From NCBI GenBank assembly GCA_041661505.1, contig JBAZUF010000004.1, positions 68,861-132,860 of the forward strand: a stretch of DNA of 64,000 nucleotides. The letters are read 5' to 3'. A program made the translations under genes and the position numbers. Numbering within the stretch: position 1 is the stretch's first letter; the number at the start of each line of letters is the position of its first letter. This stretch comes from Patescibacteria group bacterium. GTDB taxonomy: Bacteria; Patescibacteriota; Patescibacteriia; Patescibacteriales; JBAZCA01. The notes beneath the pieces are model-generated. The model searched no databases. It worked only from the letters and a program-made list of their open reading frames with translations, and had not been told where the DNA came from. Of this stretch, positions 16,068-33,999 are shown one piece after another.

Positions 16068-16136
16068 GCCGGCGTAGCTTCCGCCGCAGGCGGACAGGCA
16101 GCTGGTACCCCATTTCCGCAGAGCATGGTTATGAGT
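16068..16136 (+). pseudogene. tRNA-Thr-derived 5' fragment with hairpin insertions
   Basis: Composition is gccggcgtagct, a 19-nt insert, cagctggta, a 16-nt replacement, then catggttatgagt. The segments align with positions 1-12, 13-21 and 31-43 of the adjacent tRNA-Thr. There is no 3' half. Confidence 0.6.
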
Positions 16137-16148
16137 AAAAAATAATAT

Positions 16149-16221
16149 GCCGACGTAGCTCAGCTGGTAGAGCAACTCCATGGTAAGGAGTAGGTCCGCG
16201 GTTCGAATCCGCGCGTCGGCT
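16149..16221 (+). tRNA. tRNA-Thr (anticodon GGT)
   Basis: Hand-folded cloverleaf of 73 nt: acceptor gccgacg/cgtcggc, D stem gctc/gagc, anticodon stem actcc/ggagt with loop atGGTaa, and T arm cgcgg-ttcgaat-ccgcg. No CCA is encoded. Confidence 0.9.
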
Positions 16222-16238
16222 CAAAAAACACTAAATAT

Positions 16239-16312
16239 CAGCTGGTACCCCGCAGATGCGGGGCATGGTAAGGAGTAGGTCTGCCCCGCAAAATGCGGGG
16301 CGCGTCGGCTCA
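16239..16312 (+). pseudogene. tRNA-Thr-derived 3' fragment with stems replaced by GC-rich hairpins
   Basis: Composition is cagctggta, ccccgcagatgcgggg, catggtaaggagtaggtc (exact match to the tRNA), tgccccgcaaaatgcgggg (in place of the T arm), then cgcgtcggctca (exact 3' acceptor). Confidence 0.6.
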
Positions 16313-16317
16313 AGCAA

Positions 16318-27707: not shown

Positions 27708-28106
27708 ATGCCAAAAAAAATATTCATCGTCGAAGATGACGCCAATATGCTTTTTAGCCTGCAGGCTAAATTAAGGGTCGCCGGTTTTGAAGTTATCATC
27801 AGCCAGGGCGACGAGACCGAAGAAAGGGTTGTGGAAAAAGTAAAGAGCTTTTTACCGGATTATCTTATTCTTGATCTTGTACTTCCGCAAACCGAAGGCT
27901 TTAAAATCTTATCCCTTTTAAAATCGAGCCGGGGACTGCCGAACCTGCCGGTATTTGTTTTTACCAATTTAAGCGATTCGGAAAGCCGGGAAAAGGCGGC
28001 CAGGCTCGGCGCCGTCCAGTTCATAAATAAAAATGAATTTAATATTGATGATTTTATAGAAAAAATAAAAAAGATTGTTTCCAATTTTGAAAAAACCAAA
28101 TGCTAA
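27708..28106 (+). CDS. Single-domain response regulator (receiver only)
   Basis: IFIVEDD, phospho-acceptor context YLILDLVLP, VFVFTNLSD, and a conserved Lys region. There is no output domain. The stop overlaps the next gene's start (ATGCTAA). Confidence 0.85.
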   Translation: MPKKIFIVEDDANMLFSLQAKLRVAGFEVIISQGDETEERVVEKVKSFLPDYLILDLVLPQTEGFKILSLLKSSRGLPNLPVFVFTNLSDSESREKAARLGAVQFINKNEFNIDDFIEKIKKIVSNFEKTKC

Positions 28107-30199
28107 GAATAATTTCCTGGATTAAGTCCTTATCGTTAAAAAAGAAAATATTGTTGGTATTAACGCTGGCCGTCATTATTATCGGAGCGTTTTTTGTTTT
28201 AAAGAAAAAGCCGGCGGCCGAGTATACGACCGCCAAAGCCGCCCTAGGAACCTTAAAGCAAACCGTATCGGAAACCGGAACGGTCGAGGCGCCGGAAGAT
28301 TTGAATTTAAGTTTTTTGGCTTCCGGGCGCTTGAATAAAATTTTAGTGAAAGAAGGGGAAAGGGTTTTTGGCGGCCAAGCTTTGGCCGAACTGGATTATG
28401 GCGCATTATCCATTAAGAAAAAAGAAGCCCAGGCCAGCCTGGATTCGGCTAATGCCAGTTTGGACAAACTTATTTCCGGGTCAACCGGATCAGAAATAAG
28501 AGTCGCCCGGGCTAATGTCAATCAGGCCAAAGCCAGCTATAACGCCGCGGTGGTTGACTTGGAAAAAACAAAAAATACCACGGCTGAAAACAACCGGCAG
28601 GCGCAAAAAAAGGTAAGTGACTTAACCTCGTCCGCGCCGACTGACGTTACTACTTATGAGCAGTCGGTAATCCAAGCGAAAACCGTCCTGGACAATACCA
28701 GATCTTCTTACGAAACGGCCTTAAAAAATTATCGCGCTGACGCCTTGTCCGCCGTTGAAGACAGTATTTTCGACGGTCAAACTGCTCTGGATAAAATTGA
28801 CGCGATTTTGCAGGATACGGACAAGATGGCCAACTTCAGCGTTAAAGATGCGTCTTTTATCGCGAAAACCAAAGATGGTTATACTGACGCCGGGGTTAAA
28901 AAAAATACGGCTAATACTGATCTTTCCGCCGGCAAATCTTCTAACCGGGACGCCGACATTAAAACGGCGTCTAATAGCGCCATCACTTTCCTTAACGCGG
29001 TTTTAAAAGCGCTTGATTACTGCTTTAAAGGACTGGAAAAAAGCTTGGCTACTTCGGATTATTCCCAAGCTACGCTGGATGCCGATAAAACATTAATTTC
29101 AACGCAAATAAGCACCATTACCGCGAGCATCTCGTCTCTGCAAACCGCCGGTCAGAATCTTAATACCGGAATCTTAAATTATGATACTAAAGTCCGGGAA
29201 GCTGAAGAAGACCTGGCCCAGGCGCAAGCCAGCCTGGATAACGCCGCTTTGGGCGCCCAAAACAGTTTAGACTCAACTAAATTAACCGGGGAGCAAAGCT
29301 TGGCGGCGGCAGAATCAAAAGTTGAAACGGCGCTTAAGGCTTACGACTCGGCGCAAGCCAGCCTGGATAAGGTTTTGGCTGGATCAAATAACTTCGATAT
29401 CCGCGCGGCCCAGGCCGGCTTTGCCCAGGCCGAAGCTAATTTAGAATCAATAAACAGGCAGATTGAAGACAGCGTCATCATCGCGCCGGTTTCCGGAACG
29501 GTAACCAAAATCGCCTACCAAATTGGTGAAACCGTTCAGGCGGCTTCGACCGCCATCTCAATGATCGGCGACAATGACTTTAATATAAAGATCGATATTT
29601 CTGAAATCGACGTCTCCAAAATAAGCGCGGGGAATGAATGCGAAATCACTTTCGATTCCTTTGGCGCGGAAAAGAAATTCGAGGGAATTGTTTATTTTAT
29701 TGACACGGCTCCGACCATAATCCAGGACGTAGTATATTACAAAGTGAAAGTCAAATTAAAAGGAACCGATGTTATGGACGAACTAACGGCGACGAGCACG
29801 GCTGGCGCCGTAGCTATTGGCGCGACATCTACGGCCCCTTTATTAGAAGGCTCTTCGGAAGCCGGAGAAGACCTGGAAAATCCGGCCGAGACCGCCGAAA
29901 ATGCCTCTGCCGCGAAAGCGGAGGCCGAGATGACTGAAGAATATTCCCGGATAAAACCCGGGATGACCGCCAACGTCGATATCTTTGCCGCCAAAAAAGA
30001 CGGAGTCCTGATTATGCCTTTGCGCGCGGTCGTTGATAAAAACGGATCAGGAAAGTACGTCCGCGTTATGGACGGCAAAACTCCGAAAGAAGTTCCGGTT
30101 GAAATCGGATTAAAAGGCGACGAAGGGATGGTCGAAGTGATTTCCGGGGTTAAAGAAGGCGACGAGGTAGTTACGTTCGTAAAAGAAAACGCGAAATAA
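28100..30199 (+). CDS. HlyD/MacA-type membrane-fusion (periplasmic adaptor) protein, unusually long
   Basis: N-terminal TM segment, lipoyl-like halves (GTVEAPEDLNLSF...GERVFGGQALAELD and IIAPVSGTVTKIAYQIGE), a helical region of about 360 aa between them, and beta-barrel/MP domains carrying an Ala/Glu-rich insert. Confidence 0.85.
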   Translation: MLRIISWIKSLSLKKKILLVLTLAVIIIGAFFVLKKKPAAEYTTAKAALGTLKQTVSETGTVEAPEDLNLSFLASGRLNKILVKEGERVFGGQALAELDYGALSIKKKEAQASLDSANASLDKLISGSTGSEIRVARANVNQAKASYNAAVVDLEKTKNTTAENNRQAQKKVSDLTSSAPTDVTTYEQSVIQAKTVLDNTRSSYETALKNYRADALSAVEDSIFDGQTALDKIDAILQDTDKMANFSVKDASFIAKTKDGYTDAGVKKNTANTDLSAGKSSNRDADIKTASNSAITFLNAVLKALDYCFKGLEKSLATSDYSQATLDADKTLISTQISTITASISSLQTAGQNLNTGILNYDTKVREAEEDLAQAQASLDNAALGAQNSLDSTKLTGEQSLAAAESKVETALKAYDSAQASLDKVLAGSNNFDIRAAQAGFAQAEANLESINRQIEDSVIIAPVSGTVTKIAYQIGETVQAASTAISMIGDNDFNIKIDISEIDVSKISAGNECEITFDSFGAEKKFEGIVYFIDTAPTIIQDVVYYKVKVKLKGTDVMDELTATSTAGAVAIGATSTAPLLEGSSEAGEDLENPAETAENASAAKAEAEMTEEYSRIKPGMTANVDIFAAKKDGVLIMPLRAVVDKNGSGKYVRVMDGKTPKEVPVEIGLKGDEGMVEVISGVKEGDEVVTFVKENAK

Positions 30200-30241: not shown

Positions 30242-30961
30242 ATGCCCGCTTTGATTAATATTAACGACCTTCATAAAATCTATAAATCCGAAGACATCGA
30301 AACCCACGTTCTGCGTGGGGTTAGTTTTAAAATCGAGAAAGGCGAATTTGTCTCGATTATGGGGCCGTCCGGCTCGGGAAAATCGACGCTTATGCATATC
30401 CTGGGGCTCCTTGACCGGGCGTCATCCGGCGTTTATGAATTCGAAGGAGTGAACGTAACCGAACTGTCGGACAATGAATTGGCTAAAATGCGTAATGAGA
30501 AAATCGGGTTTGTTTTTCAGGCTTTTAACCTGCTTCCGCGGACCAGCGTTTTGGAAAATGTAGTTCTGCCTTTGTCTTATTCGGCGAACAAGGCCGGCAT
30601 GCAGGGCCGGGCGAAAAAAGTTTTGGAAAGCGTCGGGCTGGGCCATCGCCTGCCATACTTCACTAACCAAATATCGGGCGGGGAAAAACAGCGCGTCGCC
30701 ATTGCCCGGGCTTTGGTCAATGAGCCGTCGATAATTTTTGCCGACGAGCCAACCGGAAATCTTGACTCAAAATCCGGCACCCAAATTATGGAAATACTCC
30801 AGCATTTGAATAATGAAGGCAATACGATTGTCATGGTAACGCACGAAACTTACACTTCCGAGCACGCGAAAAGAATTATAAAGATAAGAGACGGCGAAAT
30901 TGTCGATGACTATCTCGTGGAGCACCGCCGCATAGCCAAAGACGGCGTGATGCTCAAGTAG
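30242..30961 (+). CDS. ABC transporter ATP-binding protein (LolD/MacB-NBD type)
   Basis: Walker [11 protein letters not shown]-loop, signature [15 protein letters not shown], Walker [13 protein letters not shown], and H-loop VTHE. Confidence 0.93.
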
Positions 30962-31033: not shown

Positions 31034-32287
31034 ATGATTAATTTTTGCAAACAATGCGTAAAGAATTCTGTCCGGGCGCTTTTAGGAAATAAGATGAGGA
31101 GCTTTTTGACCATGCTCGGGATTATCATCGGCGTGTCGGCGGTAATTATTATCATGGCGGTCGGCGCCGGGGCTCAAAGCCTGATTTTAGATCAGATCAA
31201 AGGAATCGGTACGGATTTAATCGGTATTCAGCCGGGTAAAAGCGATTCTAAAGAGCCGCCGGCTTCGGTGATGGGAATCGTAATCGCCACTCTTACTTAC
31301 GAAGACGCTTTGGCGCTCGCGAAAGTGAATAATGTTCCGGACTTGACGAGCGTTGAAGCGACCGTTAAAGGAGTGGTTACGGTTTCATGGGAGAATAATG
31401 AAGTTGATACCAATTTAAACGGGACTATGGCTAGCTATCCGGAAGCCGAATCGCATGACGTGGAAGCCGGGCGGTTTTTTACGGCGGACGAAGAAAGGGG
31501 CATTGCCAAGGTAGTAGTGCTGGGCTCAAAAGTAAAAGACGATATTTTCGGCCAAAGCGACGCTATCGGGCAAAAGCTGAAAATTAAAAAACATACTTTC
31601 CAGGTAATCGGCGTTATGAAGAAAAAGGGAAGCGTAGCCTTCCAGGACTATGATGACCAAATTATGGTCCCGATTACCGCGGCCCAAAAGCTGATTCTGG
31701 GGATTAACTACGTCAACATGATCCGCGGCAAGGTAGATAGCGAAGACAATATTCCTAAAGCGACCGAGGATATAGAAAAGACGCTTCGCGAACGGCACGG
31801 AATAAGCGACCAATCCGGCGCCGGGGACGATTTTACGGTTCGAAACGCCGCCCAGGCGCTTGATATGGTAACGACGGTTACTGACGCGCTAAAATATTTT
31901 TTGGCGGCCATGGCGGCAATTTCCCTTGTGGTTGGCGGCATTGGCATTATGAATATAATGCTCGTGAGCGTTTCCGAGCGGACGCGCGAGATTGGGCTAA
32001 GAAAAGCAGTCGGCGCCAGGCGCTCGGATATCCTTATTCAATTTTTAACTGAATCGATAATTATTACCCTTACCGGAGGAATAATCGGCATTGCCGCCGG
32101 CGCGCTGGTTTCGCTTATAATCGCTTTGGGAGCCCATGCCATGAACTACCAATGGGATTACAGCGTTTCGTTTTTATCCATCGCCTTAGGCGTGGGAGTT
32201 TCCTCTTTTGTCGGTTTGGTGTTTGGAATTTACCCGGCCAGCAAAGCGGGGAAGCTTGACCCGATTGAAGCTTTGCGGTATGAATAG
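31034..32287 (+). CDS. ABC transporter permease, MacB-PCD + FtsX type (paralog 1)
   Basis: NKMRSFLTMLGIIIGVSAVI TM1, a periplasmic core domain, and FtsX motif LVVGGIGIMNIMLVSVSERTREIGLRKAVGA...PIEALRYE. Confidence 0.9.
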   Translation: MINFCKQCVKNSVRALLGNKMRSFLTMLGIIIGVSAVIIIMAVGAGAQSLILDQIKGIGTDLIGIQPGKSDSKEPPASVMGIVIATLTYEDALALAKVNNVPDLTSVEATVKGVVTVSWENNEVDTNLNGTMASYPEAESHDVEAGRFFTADEERGIAKVVVLGSKVKDDIFGQSDAIGQKLKIKKHTFQVIGVMKKKGSVAFQDYDDQIMVPITAAQKLILGINYVNMIRGKVDSEDNIPKATEDIEKTLRERHGISDQSGAGDDFTVRNAAQALDMVTTVTDALKYFLAAMAAISLVVGGIGIMNIMLVSVSERTREIGLRKAVGARRSDILIQFLTESIIITLTGGIIGIAAGALVSLIIALGAHAMNYQWDYSVSFLSIALGVGVSSFVGLVFGIYPASKAGKLDPIEALRYE

Positions 32288-32322
32288 CTTGGCGCATGAA
32301 TAAAAAATAAAATTCACATTTT

Positions 32323-32394
32323 GCCTTCGTCGTTCAATGGATAGGACGCAAGTTTCCGGAACTTGTGATGCAGGTTCGATTCCTGCCGAGGGCA
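32323..32394 (+). tRNA. tRNA-Arg (anticodon CCG)
   Basis: Acceptor gccttcg/cgagggc (one G-U pair), D stem gttc/ggac, anticodon stem caagt/acttg with loop ttCCGga, and T arm gcagg-ttcgatt-cctgc. 72 nt. It lies between the two permease genes. Confidence 0.9.
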
Positions 32395-32429
32395 CAAAAA
32401 TTCACGGCTCTTTAGAGCCGGAAATTTTT

Positions 32430-32500
32430 GTTCTTCGGCGGTTGCGAGGACCTGCCGTTTTGCAGGGGGCTTCCGCCCCTTCGATTCCTGCCGAGGGCAC
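32430..32500 (+). pseudogene. tRNA-Arg-derived tRNA-like fragment (no anticodon arm, 13-nt hairpin inserted in the T stem)
   Basis: The 21-nt sequence ttcgattcctgccgagggcac occurs exactly twice (32375-32395 and 32480-32500). Here it is preceded by gcagg plus the insert gggcttccgcccc, a degenerate D-arm (..ggac) and a degenerate acceptor 5' strand (ttcttcg). Confidence 0.55.
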
Positions 32501-32504
32501 CAAT

Positions 32505-33761
32505 ATGTTTTCATCCCTTAAAACCGCCTTTAAGTCTTTACGCACCAACAAGGGCCGAACGGCTTTGGCGATTTTAGGCATAGTAATCGGCATAGCGTCG
32601 GTCATAATAGTCTTCTCGGCCGGCGAGGGAATCCGCCATCTGATTATCGGGCAGGTAGAATCCTTTGGAACCAATATTATTGAATCAGAGCCGCGGGTGC
32701 CGAAAAAAACCGCTAAAGGAAGAGCCTCGGACACCGAACAGGGCATGGCGGCGGCTCAAGGCGTCCAGGTTACTTCCATGAAATTGAAAGATATGGATGA
32801 TATTGATAAATTGCCGAACGTAAAAGAAAGCTATGGCGCGGTTTTAGGCCAGGAGCAGGCCAGCTACGGCAATGAACTTAAAAAAGTTTTTGTCGAAGGA
32901 GTAAGCGCGAGCTACATTGACATTGACCAAAGCGAAATCGACTCCGGCCGTTTTTTTACCGATGCCGAAGACCGCTCATTGGCCGAGGTGGCGGTTCTTG
33001 GTTCGGAAATCAGTAATCAGCTGTTCGGCGATTCTGACCCTTTGGACAAGTGGATAAGGGTAAGAAAACAAAAATTCCGGATTATCGGCGTCTTAAAAGA
33101 ACGGGGTTCAATGGGCGGAGTAATGAATTTCGACCAATTTGTTTTTATCCCGCTTCGCACCCTGCAAAAAAAGATTATGGGCATTGACCATGTATTATAT
33201 ATGATCCATGAGCTAAATGACGTAAGTCTGGCAGATGAAACCGCCGCCGAAATAAAAACGATTTTAAGAACCAATCATAACATCACCGATCCGGACCGGG
33301 ATGATTTTGCCGTTACTACCATGGCCGAGATGATGAAAATTTTGGGGACTGTTACCAACGCCATTACCCTTTTACTTCTAACTATTGTCGCCATATCATT
33401 AGTCGTCGGCGGCGTTGGCGTTATGAATATTATGTACGTAATGGTTTCCGAGCGGACGCCGGAAATTGGATTGCGCAAATCAATCGGCGCGAAATTTTCG
33501 GATATCATGGGCCAGTTTTTGTTTGAATCAATCCTTATCACCCTTACGGGCGCGATTGTGGGAATCGTTCTCGGGGTGTTATTATCATTTTTAATCGCGC
33601 TCGCGGCCAGAGGCTTTGGACTGGCCTGGGAATTTGCCGTTCCGCTTCGCGCTTATCCCGTGGCCATAGGTTTTTCTTTATTATTCGGCTTGGCCTTCGG
33701 CCTGTATCCGGCGAGGAAGGCGGCGCGTCTTGACCCGGTTGAAGCTTTGCGCCGCGAATAA
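32505..33761 (+). CDS. ABC transporter permease, MacB-PCD + FtsX type (paralog 2)
   Basis: The family-typical N-terminus MFSSLKTAFKSLRTNKGRTALAILGIVIGIASVI starts at ATG 32505, and the FtsX motif is LVVGGVGVMNIMYVMVSERTPEIGLRKSIGA...PVEALRRE. The track start at 32337 would read through the tRNA gene. Confidence 0.88.
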   Translation: MFSSLKTAFKSLRTNKGRTALAILGIVIGIASVIIVFSAGEGIRHLIIGQVESFGTNIIESEPRVPKKTAKGRASDTEQGMAAAQGVQVTSMKLKDMDDIDKLPNVKESYGAVLGQEQASYGNELKKVFVEGVSASYIDIDQSEIDSGRFFTDAEDRSLAEVAVLGSEISNQLFGDSDPLDKWIRVRKQKFRIIGVLKERGSMGGVMNFDQFVFIPLRTLQKKIMGIDHVLYMIHELNDVSLADETAAEIKTILRTNHNITDPDRDDFAVTTMAEMMKILGTVTNAITLLLLTIVAISLVVGGVGVMNIMYVMVSERTPEIGLRKSIGAKFSDIMGQFLFESILITLTGAIVGIVLGVLLSFLIALAARGFGLAWEFAVPLRAYPVAIGFSLLFGLAFGLYPARKAARLDPVEALRRE

Positions 33762-33839: not shown

Positions 33840-33867
33840 TTGAAAAGTTAGGATTAAGTGCTATAAT
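33840..33867 (+). promoter_or_regulatory. Putative promoter TTGAAA-16 nt-TATAAT in front of the tandem hairpin leader
   Basis: TTGAAA at 33840-33845 and TATAAT at 33862-33867. Confidence 0.45.
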
Positions 33868-33999
33868 CGCATTGAGTGAGGAAATGGAGCTTGCTCCAAT
33901 TTCCGAGCGAAGAAGACTATGTCTTTTTGACATAATCGCATTGAGTGAGCCCCGCACCATGCGGGACGAGCGAACAAGACTATGTCATCGGACATAATC
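33863..33999 (+). repeat. Tandem modular repeat (69-nt and 62-nt units), each with conserved arms and a different internal hairpin
   Basis: ataatcgcattgagtgag occurs at 33863 and 33932, and ataatc again at 33994. gagcgaa(g/c)aagactatgtc occurs at 33905 and 33968. The variable hairpins are ggaaatggag-cttg-ctccaatttcc and ccccgca-cca-tgcggg. The conserved hairpin gactatgtc-N4/5-gacataatc appears twice. Confidence 0.7.

What the first reader, a model, noticed from the sequence alone, without database searches (positions are those of the whole stretch)
32288..32510. tRNA-Arg embedded inside an ABC-efflux operon, followed by a tRNA-like pseudo-copy that abuts the next permease's start codon and supplies a GAGGG SD-like sequence
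Seen in sequence:
- tRNA-Arg(CCG) (32323-32394) sits 35 nt after the stop of permease 1.
- A hairpin cggctc-ttta-gagccg follows at 32405-32420, then gaaattttt.
- A tRNA-like fragment follows at 32430-32500. It has an acceptor-like ttcttcg, a degenerate D arm and no anticodon arm. Its T stem gcagg is interrupted by a 13-nt mini-hairpin gggcttccgcccc. It then repeats the last 21 nt of the tRNA exactly (ttcgattcctgccgagggcac).
- The ATG of permease 2 (32505) lies 4 nt after this copy. The only Shine-Dalgarno-like sequence (GAGGG, 7-nt spacing) is the duplicated acceptor 3' strand.

Inference: the tRNA and the tRNA-like module may act as RNase P/Z punctuation that separates the two permease cistrons, as in mitochondrial-style tRNA punctuation. 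Alternatively, the copy may be an att-type scar from acquisition of the second permease gene. The architecture parallels the tRNA-Thr locus (an intact tRNA plus a hairpin-bearing partial copy).
Basis: partly seen in the sequence, partly recalled or inferred. Interest (0 to 1): 0.65.

Follow-up and report, generated by a model that had tools for sequence, protein, structure and literature searches.

The report
Decayed duplicate of tRNA-Arg gene
An intact arginine tRNA gene between two transporter genes is followed by a broken, hairpin-riddled second copy of itself, which is most likely a local duplication scar at a rearrangement-prone spot and not a working tRNA-like signal or ribosome-binding site.

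Summary
tRNA-Arg(CCG) lies at 32323-32394, a terminator-like hairpin at 32405-32420, and a non-tRNA copy at 32430-32500. That copy repeats the last 21 nt of the tRNA exactly and ends 4 nt before the permease-2 ATG. A second assembly of the same species has the identical junction.

Comparative data change the interpretation. Outgroups have permease 1 and permease 2 adjacent with no tRNA, so permease 2 was not newly acquired. In two close relatives the real tRNA-Arg ends about 1-4 nt before the permease-2 ATG. The window's pseudo-copy therefore sits in the ancestral tRNA position.

Similarity extends beyond the 21-nt core into the T-stem, the acceptor/D region and the upstream leader. This fits an ~88-nt tandem duplication whose downstream copy decayed through hairpin insertions. 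Two other intergenic loci in this genome show the same pattern.

The SD idea is unsupported, because this genome barely uses SD sequences. The pseudo-copy scores as no tRNA, and a tRNA-like fold is 12.5 kcal/mol worse than its predicted fold. Sister lineages carry varied integrase islands at this site, so an att scar remains a rival. Processing by RNase P/Z is untested. This is an ordinary kind of feature, with some curious details.

The parts
31034..32287 (+). MacB/FtsX-type ABC permease 1 (417 aa)
   Evidence: Pfam MacB_PCD 7.9e-44 and FtsX 2.2e-21.
32309..32396 (+). Duplication unit 1 (about 88 nt): leader AAAATTCAC-ATTTT, the intact tRNA-Arg and about 2 nt beyond
   Evidence: The 9-mer AAAATTCAC recurs at 32397-32405, directly after the unit.
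32323..32394 (+). Intact tRNA-Arg(CCG), with no encoded CCA
   Evidence: ARAGORN. Rfam RF00005 60.9 bits. The body is identical to the tRNA-Arg of relatives L003, L005 and L092.
32394..32431 (+). Extended palindrome whose GC tip (32405-32420) is a terminator-like hairpin. About 18 nt (32406-32423) are inserted into the copy-2 leader.
   Evidence: Inverted repeat of 18 nt at 89%. Terminator-like on both strands. Insertion inferred from the alignment.
32397..32500 (+). Duplication unit 2, the decayed tRNA-Arg copy. The tRNA-derived part is 32430-32500. It contains an acceptor-like TTCTTCG (32431-32437) and a CCTGC-CGTTTT-GCAGG hairpin (32451-32466) in place of the anticodon arm. TGCAGG is at 32461-32466.
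   Evidence: Alignment upstream of the 21-nt core scores 15.5 against shuffles at -2.3 +/- 6.0; 7 of 2000 shuffles reach it. No tRNA hit. MFE -35.4 kcal/mol, z = -2.7.
32467..32479 (+). 13-nt GC-rich insert GGGCTTCCGCCCC between the T-stem 5' strand and the T-loop. It forms the hairpin GGGGC-TTCC-GCCCC at 32466-32479.
   Evidence: Read from the sequence. Listed in the hairpin scan.
32480..32500 (+). Exact 21-nt copy of the tRNA 3' end (T-loop, T-stem 3' strand, acceptor 3' strand, discriminator plus 1 nt). It is followed by CA, which gives an encoded ACCA, and then AT-ATG.
   Evidence: The same CCA-then-ATG context follows the real tRNA in L003.
32505..33761 (+). MacB/FtsX-type ABC permease 2 (418 aa)
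   Evidence: Pfam. The start is confirmed by N-terminal alignment with relatives and by the NCBI call in L169.

Best explanation
In the ancestor of this small Patescibacteria clade, a tRNA-Arg(CCG) gene lay between the two permease genes, with its 3' end about 1-4 nt from the permease-2 ATG.

In the window's lineage, an ~88-nt segment (a 14-nt A/T-rich leader plus the tRNA) was duplicated head-to-tail. The upstream copy stayed a working tRNA. The downstream copy, still in the ancestral position against the ATG, became redundant and was remodelled by several changes:
- an 18-nt GC hairpin inserted in its leader, which now looks like a terminator behind the good tRNA;
- replacement of the anticodon arm;
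- a 13-nt GC hairpin inserted at the T-loop;
- a few substitutions.

The result is a stable, non-tRNA, three-hairpin structure that serves as the 5' leader of permease 2.

Shown: the anatomy, the collinear homology, the ancestral position, the loss of tRNA character, and the same duplicate-plus-hairpin pattern elsewhere in this genome.

Inferred: the duplication mechanism (slippage or unequal exchange at a recombination-prone site). Also inferred is that only the intact tRNA is cut out by RNase P and RNase Z, and that the decayed copy has no tRNA-like role beyond being a structured leader.
For: 1. Homology is collinear and goes beyond the 21-nt core. The leader 9-mer AAAATTCAC (32309 and 32397), ATTTT, CTTCG-CG-TT, AGGAC and TGCAGG all match in order. 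The alignment scores 15.5 against -2.3 +/- 6.0, and 7 of 2000 shuffles reach it.
2. The ancestral state can be read from relatives. The real tRNA-Arg ends 1-2 nt (ARAGORN) before the permease-2 ATG in L003/L004 and in L005/L089. L003 shows the same ...GGCACCA(T)ATG context as the window's pseudo-copy.
3. Outgroups have no tRNA between the permeases.
4. The same process appears at other intergenic sites in this genome. At tRNA-Thr, decayed 5' and 3' copies with GC hairpins flank an intact tRNA. Relatives L170, L172 and L174 have a plain tRNA plus terminator there. At 33863-33995 a non-tRNA tandem duplicate differs between its two copies only in the internal hairpin.
5. The copy is no longer a tRNA.
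6. An identical junction is present in a second assembly.
Against: - The exact identity block starts precisely at the T-loop and runs to the 3' end. That is the classical position of a tyrosine-integrase att core.
- Sister lineages carry integrase-bearing islands at exactly this site.
- Short-range copies that begin in or at the end of the T-loop also occur next to tRNAs in three unrelated loci: L134, L067 and L040. This hints at a site-specific process.
- The 5' homology rests on a gap-rich alignment of A/T-rich and short motifs (p about 0.004).
- No intermediate relative at 90-99% identity was found that catches the duplication before decay.
- About five indels against about four substitutions is an odd ratio for neutral decay.
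Confidence: 0.6

Rival explanations
1. Integration scar. A tyrosine-integrase element inserted into the 3' end of tRNA-Arg, with the 21-27-nt block as core. This produced attL (the intact tRNA) and attR (the partial copy next to permease 2). The element was later deleted down to an 84-nt remnant.
For: - The repeat runs from the T-loop to just past the discriminator, with the intact copy on the left and the partial copy on the right. [quoted passage not shown]
- Empty sites exist in L003 and L005.
- L092 has perm1, tRNA-Arg, a 3.7-kb island with an integrase, then perm2.
- L001/L002 and L090/L091 have integrases directly upstream of perm2. These integrases are only 45-69% identical while perm2 is 95-99% identical, so the integrases turn over at this site.
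- T-loop-bounded short-range copies occur next to tRNAs in L134, L067 and L040.
Against: - The sequence directly after the intact tRNA matches the host leader upstream of that tRNA (AAAATTCAC). The supposed element arm aligns with the tRNA's acceptor/D region.
- There is no integrase in the 64-kb window (tblastn).
- The island-bearing relatives have no attR-like copy of the tRNA 3' end.
- The pseudo-copy-specific 21-mer has no match in viral contigs.
- The tRNA-Thr locus has a 5'-fragment copy upstream, and the 33863-33995 duplicate involves no tRNA at all. Neither fits 3'-end integration.
Confidence: 0.2
2. Functional tRNA-derived processing or stability module. The decayed copy is retained because RNase P/Z-type enzymes still recognise it, or because it is a protective 5' structure. 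It would define the 5' end of a near-leaderless permease-2 mRNA, like plant-mitochondrial t-elements.
For: - In relatives a real tRNA abuts the ATG, so tRNA 3' processing would leave a leader of a few nucleotides there. Such abutment is rare among the 36 tRNAs held.
- The genome is essentially SD-less with A/T-rich leaders. Permease 2 has the most GC-rich upstream 30 nt of 44 genes and one of the most structured start regions.
- The copy keeps 27 of 27 tRNA 3' nucleotides plus an encoded ACCA. Its predicted closing helix is 11-12 bp, the length of an acceptor/T-stem stack.
- The structure is more stable than shuffles, with z = -2.7 to -4.0.
- t-elements are a precedent (PMC1920247).
Against: - No tRNA-model hit.
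- The T-arm motif GGTTCGATTCC is split by 13 nt.
- A tRNA-like fold is 12.5 kcal/mol less stable than the MFE.
- An encoded CCA is an anti-determinant for RNase Z in bacteria where this has been studied (from memory).
- The element is found in one species only, so there is no conservation or covariation evidence.
- The same kind of decayed copy at tRNA-Thr is not next to any start codon.
Confidence: 0.12
3. GAGGG in the duplicated acceptor strand is the Shine-Dalgarno sequence of permease 2.
For: GAGGG lies 7 nt before the ATG. The relatives have GAAGG 5-6 nt before the ATG.
Against: - Only 5 of 44 genes have GGAG or GAGG upstream, close to chance. rplJ and rplL have none.
- The motif is simply the tRNA acceptor 3' strand.
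- It is base-paired in the predicted structure.
Confidence: 0.05

Closest known systems
Partial tRNA gene copies (tRNA gene fragments) next to complete tRNA genes in prokaryotes, usually from integration of mobile elements (PMC9897764)
   Same: [quoted passage not shown] The partial copy shares the 3' segment exactly. The site is a rearrangement hot spot, with integrase islands in sister lineages.
   Different: The copies are only 105 nt apart, start to start, with no element between them. The homology includes the 5' part of the tRNA and the upstream leader, which points to tandem duplication. The partial copy carries inserted GC hairpins.
Plant mitochondrial t-elements, which are tRNA-like structures that direct RNase P/Z cleavage to make mRNA ends (PMC1920247)
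   Same: It is a tRNA-derived structure directly upstream of a coding region. An acceptor-like helix is present.
   Different: The T-arm motif GGTTCRANYCC that defines t-elements is interrupted here. A cloverleaf-like fold is not favoured. No transcript ends are known.
Mixed tRNA-mRNA transcription units in bacteria, such as the E. coli thrU-tyrU-glyT-thrT-tufB operon, and the mitochondrial tRNA punctuation model (both recalled from memory, not tested here)
   Same: A tRNA gene lies on the same strand between or in front of protein genes, with no room for a separate promoter in relatives. Excision of the tRNA would separate the messages.
   Different: In the relatives the tRNA ends about 1-4 nt from the start codon, much closer than in the E. 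coli example. In the window a decayed copy, not a tRNA, occupies that position.
Small dispersed palindromic repeats in bacterial intergenic DNA, of the REP/MITE type (from memory)
   Same: The GC-rich hairpin CCCGCA-N(1-5)-TGCGGG occurs 4 times in 64 kb, always intergenic, and is nearly absent from 1.4 Mb of other loci.
   Different: The units are only 13-19 nt. They lie inside decayed duplicates or at the centres of larger palindromes. No transposase is linked to them, and mobility is not shown.

Membership tests
tRNA (Rfam RF00005), intact copy 32323-32394 | Cloverleaf covariance-model score above the gathering threshold, and an anticodon | tested here: met
   60.9 bits against a threshold of 29. 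ARAGORN calls Arg(CCG).
tRNA (Rfam RF00005), downstream copy 32430-32500 | Cloverleaf covariance-model score, and an anticodon arm | tested here: not met
   No RF00005 hit at E<=10 with permissive filters on 32250-32560. ARAGORN finds nothing there. The anticodon arm is absent.
Tandem duplication | Head-to-tail copies that are collinear over the whole unit, including flanking non-functional sequence | tested here: met
   The leader 9-mer and ATTTT, the acceptor/D motifs, TGCAGG and the 21-nt core all align in order. The alignment has p about 0.0035.
attL/attR scar of a tRNA-targeting tyrosine integrase | Direct repeat equal to a 3' segment of the tRNA, with the complete copy on one side and the partial copy on the other | tested here: met
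   21 nt exact, from the T-loop to the discriminator plus 1 nt.
attL/attR scar of a tRNA-targeting tyrosine integrase | Element DNA (integrase or a remnant of one) between the repeats, unrelated to the tRNA's own 5' part or leader | tested here: not met
   Only 84 nt lie between the repeats. No integrase is found in the window. The spacer aligns with the tRNA's leader and 5' part.
attL/attR scar of a tRNA-targeting tyrosine integrase | Occupied and empty versions of the same site in relatives, with the occupied ones flanked by the repeat | tested here: inconclusive
   Empty sites occur in L003 and L005. Islands with integrases occur in L092, L001 and L091. No attR-like repeat is found in the occupied ones.
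t-element-like RNase P/Z processing signal | Intact T-arm motif GGTTCRANYCC and an acceptor-like stem in a cloverleaf-like fold | tested here: not met
   The motif is split by a 13-nt insert. The tRNA-like fold is -22.9 kcal/mol against an MFE of -35.4 kcal/mol.
t-element-like RNase P/Z processing signal | Transcript ends that coincide with the element's ends | not testable with these tools
   No transcript data are available.
Shine-Dalgarno ribosome-binding site | The genome uses SD-led initiation, and the motif is accessible 5-10 nt upstream of the start | tested here: not met
   5 of 44 genes have GGAG or GAGG upstream, and rplJ and rplL have none. GAGGG is paired in the MFE and centroid structures. 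The 16S rRNA 3' end is not in the window.

The most novel reading that the evidence does not exclude
In an essentially SD-less Patescibacteria lineage, permease-2 expression depends on RNA processing at a tRNA that abuts its start codon. After duplication, the decayed copy was kept as a tRNA-derived minihelix. It has an 11-12-bp closing helix, an ACCA tail and internal hairpins. This structure would still direct or block RNase P/Z-type cleavage and would set the 5' end of a near-leaderless mRNA, making it a bacterial counterpart of plant-mitochondrial t-elements. Linked to this, the genome may have an active process that inserts 13-19-nt GC hairpins into redundant tRNA copies and into the centres of palindromes.
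Probability: 0.1. Interest if true: 0.7.

Novelty: new member of a known kind. Interest (0 to 1): 0.3.

Why it matters
As it stands, this is a well-documented example of how a tRNA gene fragment can arise without a resident mobile element. It also cautions against reading function (SD, tRNA mimicry) into such scars.

Three details could repay follow-up:
1. In close relatives a real tRNA ends about 1-4 nt from a start codon, in a genome that lacks SD sequences. tRNA 3' processing would then leave an almost leaderless message, which is a testable case of tRNA punctuation in a bacterium.
2. The tRNA/permease-2 junction is a hot spot. Near-identical genomes carry very different integrases there.
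3. This one genome shows repeated local duplication plus GC-hairpin insertion at three intergenic loci within 64 kb.

Tried and rejected
- Rfam at gathering and at E<=10 gave only the intact tRNA and chance-level hits in the region.
- The exact-product look-up of the JGI gene call P0001 found nothing. The same species was reached through permease 1 instead.
- The genome-collection survey (80 loci, best 57% identity) and the metagenome survey (80 loci) found no tRNA between the permeases outside the close clade.
- By eye, the sequence just after L092's tRNA (TTTTGCAGG..TTC..CCTGCC..GAGGGCA) looked like a shared pseudo-copy. Alignment statistics do not support this: 53 of 1000 shuffles reach the score against the 101 nt that follow the L092 tRNA, and larger targets give nothing. 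I dropped it.
- The search for an attR-like copy of the tRNA 3' end in the island-bearing relatives found none.
- The viral-contig scan with the 20-nt tRNA 3' end gave 60 hits. Fifty-six lie inside unrelated tRNA-Arg(UCU) genes, one inside a tRNA-Val gene, and three are fragments or contig-end truncations. The pseudo-copy-specific 21-mer gave 0 hits.
- The promoter scan found no sigma-70-like site between 32288 and 32504 on the + strand.
- Rfam on the inserts in L040, L067, L134 and L172 found no known RNA family.
Full report
**1. Observation**

The window holds three tRNA genes. tRNA-Arg(CCG) is at 32323-32394/5 (ARAGORN; Rfam RF00005 at 60.9 bits).

Pfam confirms the flanking genes. There is a response regulator (27708-28106), a HlyD-like fusion protein (28100-30199) and an ABC ATPase (30242-30961). 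Two MacB_PCD/FtsX permeases follow at 31034-32287 and 32505-33761. The permeases are 38% identical to each other.

The tRNA starts 35 nt after the permease-1 stop. The hairpin CGGCTC-TTTA-GAGCCG (32405-32420) followed by GAAATTTTTG is terminator-like. It forms the tip of an 18-nt inverted repeat.

The last 21 nt of the tRNA, TTCGATTCCTGCCGAGGGCAC, recur exactly at 32480-32500. There are 2 matches in the window against 0.03 expected by chance. The permease-2 ATG follows 4 nt later.

A second assembly of the same species (NCBI GCA_041664645.1, locus L169) is identical over the whole junction.

**2. What the relatives show**

The organism belongs to the Patescibacteria (source names).

The gene order RR, fusion protein, ATPase, permease 1, permease 2, DUF4012, MreB is conserved in outgroups at 65-66% permease-2 identity. 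There the two permeases are 43-98 nt apart with no tRNA. About 80 more distant loci also have no tRNA at that position. Permease 2 is therefore ancestral, and the tRNA is the newcomer in a small clade.

Within that clade (76-81% identity to the window) the junction takes several forms:
- L005/L089: the real tRNA-Arg ends 1-2 nt (by ARAGORN coordinates) before the permease-2 ATG (..CGAAGGCACATATG).
- L003/L004: the same, with an encoded CCA (..CGAAGGCACCATATG). A 4.5-kb glycosyltransferase/radical-SAM cassette is inserted between permease 1 and the tRNA.
- L092: permease 1 and tRNA-Arg are followed by a 3.7-kb island, then permease 2. The island carries NlpC/P60-like, PsbP-like and tyrosine-integrase genes.
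- L001/L002 and L090/L091: an integrase lies directly upstream of permease 2, and the contigs break shortly upstream.

The permease-2 proteins of L092, L001 and L091 are 95-99% identical, but their integrases are only 45-69% identical. The site is therefore a hot spot with integrase turnover.

The window's pseudo-copy, with its ...GAGGGCACCAATATG end, occupies the position that the real tRNA holds in L003 and L005.

**3. Origin of the pseudo-copy**

Similarity between the two units is not confined to the 21-nt core. Reading leftwards from the core:
- TGCAGG, the T-stem 5' strand, lies directly before a 13-nt insert (32467-32479).
- AGGAC and CTTCG-CG-TT match the D and acceptor regions.
- The leader AAAATTCAC...ATTTT that precedes the intact tRNA (32309-32322) recurs directly after it (32397-32405 and 32424-32429). 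In the second copy it is split by an 18-nt palindromic insert.

A global alignment of the parts upstream of the core scores 15.5, against -2.3 +/- 6.0 for shuffles. Only 7 of 2000 shuffles reach that score.

A match between the sequence that follows the intact tRNA and the host leader that precedes it is what a head-to-tail duplication predicts. The duplicated unit would be about 88 nt. Integration would not predict this match, because that sequence would be element DNA.

The copy then changed mainly through indels that create hairpins:
- the terminator-like hairpin in its leader;
- CCTGC-CGTTTT-GCAGG in place of the anticodon arm;
- GGGGC-TTCC-GCCCC at the T-loop.

**4. The same pattern elsewhere in this genome**

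At tRNA-Thr (16149-16222), a decayed 5' copy (16068-16137) and a decayed 3' copy (16240-16313) flank the intact gene. Their stems are replaced by GC hairpins.

Relatives L170, L172 and L174 have a plain tRNA-Thr plus terminator at this locus. The conserved upstream leader (..gaaataat) in the window precedes the decayed 5' copy. The decayed pieces therefore mark the ancestral gene boundaries, and the intact gene has its own short copy of the leader.

At 33863-33995 a non-tRNA tandem duplicate differs between its two copies only in its internal hairpin.

The hairpin CCCGCA-N(1-5)-TGCGGG occurs 4 times in the window against 0.03 expected. It occurs once in 1.4 Mb of other loci outside this species.

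Local duplication followed by hairpin remodelling is thus a property of this genome's intergenic DNA. It is not restricted to this junction.

**5. Is the copy functional?**

It is not a tRNA. There is no RF00005 hit at E<=10 and no ARAGORN call.

Its predicted fold is a 12-bp closing helix that encloses three small hairpins. In that helix the 5' strand UCUUCGGCGG pairs with the T-stem 3' strand and the acceptor 3' strand. The energy is -35.4 kcal/mol with z = -2.7, or -50 kcal/mol with z = -4.0 when the terminator-like hairpin is included. The best fold that keeps an acceptor stem and a T-arm is 12.5 kcal/mol weaker.

GAGGG is paired in the predicted fold. More importantly, this genome does not appear to use SD sequences. 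Only 5 of 44 genes have GGAG or GAGG within 25 nt upstream, and rplJ and rplL have none.

Permease 2 has the most GC-rich upstream 30 nt of the 44 genes (0.63 against a median of 0.30). Its start region is among the most structured.

No promoter-like site lies in the spacer, so co-transcription from upstream is likely.

From general knowledge, RNase P and RNase Z would excise the intact, CCA-less tRNA, which separates the two permease messages. In L003 and L005 the same processing would leave a permease-2 leader of only a few nucleotides. Such abutment is rare among the 36 tRNAs held.

Whether the decayed copy is still cut is unknown. The closest precedent is the plant-mitochondrial t-element (PMC1920247), but its defining T-arm motif is interrupted here.

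**6. Rivals**

An att scar is the main rival. Three points favour it:
- The identity block begins exactly at the T-loop.
- Integrase islands sit at this site in sister lineages.
- Short-range 3'-end copies that begin in or at the end of the T-loop occur beside tRNAs in three unrelated loci (L134, L067, L040). Integration is the usual source of partial tRNA genes (PMC9897764).

Five points count against it:
- The leader and 5' homology described in section 3.
- No integrase in the window.
- No attR in the occupied relatives.
- No viral match to the copy-specific sequence.
- The two non-conforming loci in the same genome (section 4).

My estimates are about 0.6 for duplication, about 0.2 for an att scar, about 0.12 for a retained processing or stability function, and about 0.05 for an SD role. 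The duplication and att-scar estimates concern how the copy arose. The other two concern a present-day role and could hold alongside either origin.

**7. Verdict**

The feature is real and correctly described. It is a tRNA gene fragment of a known general kind, and its origin is most likely a short tandem duplication at a recombination-prone junction. Interest is modest (0.3). The points worth following up are the tRNA-abuts-ATG arrangement in an SD-less genome and the lineage-specific hairpin insertions.

Noticed in passing
window 16068-16313: At the tRNA-Thr locus the intact tRNA (16149-16222) is nested between a decayed 5' copy (16068-16137) and a decayed 3' copy (16240-16313). Their stems are replaced by GC hairpins (TCCGCCGCAGGCGGA, CCCCGCAGATGCGGGG, GCCCCGCAAAATGCGGGGC). 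Relatives L170, L172 and L174 have only the tRNA plus a terminator.
   Followed up: partly
window 16249, 16285, 33951, 39919: A family of small GC hairpins, CCCGCA-N(1-5)-TGCGGG, occurs 4 times in 64 kb against 0.03 expected. All copies are intergenic. Only one copy was found in 1.4 Mb of loci from other organisms. It may be a lineage-specific REP-like mini-element. No transposase is linked to it.
   Followed up: partly
window 33863-33995: The permease-2/DUF4012 spacer holds a tandem duplicate, ATAATCGCATTGAGTGAG-[hairpin]-GAGCGAA(G/C)AAGACTATGTC. The internal hairpin differs completely between the two copies (GAAATGGAGCTTGCTCCAATTTCC against CCCCGCACCATGCGGGAC). This spacer is much shorter in relatives.
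   Followed up: partly
window, 25 nt upstream of 44 genes: The genome shows almost no Shine-Dalgarno motifs. Only 5 of 44 genes have GGAG or GAGG upstream, and rplJ (38686) and rplL (39333) have none. Leaders are A/T-rich, with a median GC of 0.30.
   Followed up: partly
L092 1162-4828; L001 1674-2486; L091 about 915-1739: Genomes whose permease 2 is 95-99% identical carry tyrosine integrases directly upstream of it that are only 45-69% identical. The stop codon is 1-2 nt from the ATG in L001 and L091. In L092 the integrase closes a 3.7-kb island that follows tRNA-Arg, and no att-like repeat is detectable.
   Followed up: partly
L003 1484-5895: A 4.5-kb cassette (GT2, radical SAM, GT2, PMT_2-family glycosyltransferase) is inserted between permease 1 and tRNA-Arg in one relative. 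Both sides of the tRNA are therefore insertion-prone.
   Followed up: no
L134 1820-2128: A tandem array with a 115-nt period has 2.7 copies at 98% identity. It starts inside the T-loop of tRNA-Asp. Each unit holds the last 19 nt of the tRNA, an A/T-rich spacer and a GC hairpin (CCCGCCGTATGGCGGG) directly before the next 3'-end copy. The hairpin-then-3'-end layout is the same as at the window's tRNA-Arg and tRNA-Thr.
   Followed up: partly
L040 924-1230; L067 422-660: Two further tRNAs (Met and Glu) in unrelated loci have short-range downstream copies of their 3' ends that begin in or at the end of the T-loop. They are 15 and 17 nt long, and in L040 the terminator is copied as well. GC-rich inserts of 120-140 nt separate the copies, and these inserts match no Rfam family.
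   Followed up: partly
L172 2873-3170: About 300 nt of GC-rich, apparently non-coding sequence lies directly after tRNA-Thr in one relative and ends in a terminator. It has no Rfam match at gathering thresholds.
   Followed up: partly
window 32273-32302: The last 14 nt of permease 1 (TTGCGGTATGAATA) are nearly repeated directly after its stop codon (TTGGCGCATGAATA, 79% identity). This could be another small local duplication, or chance.
   Followed up: no
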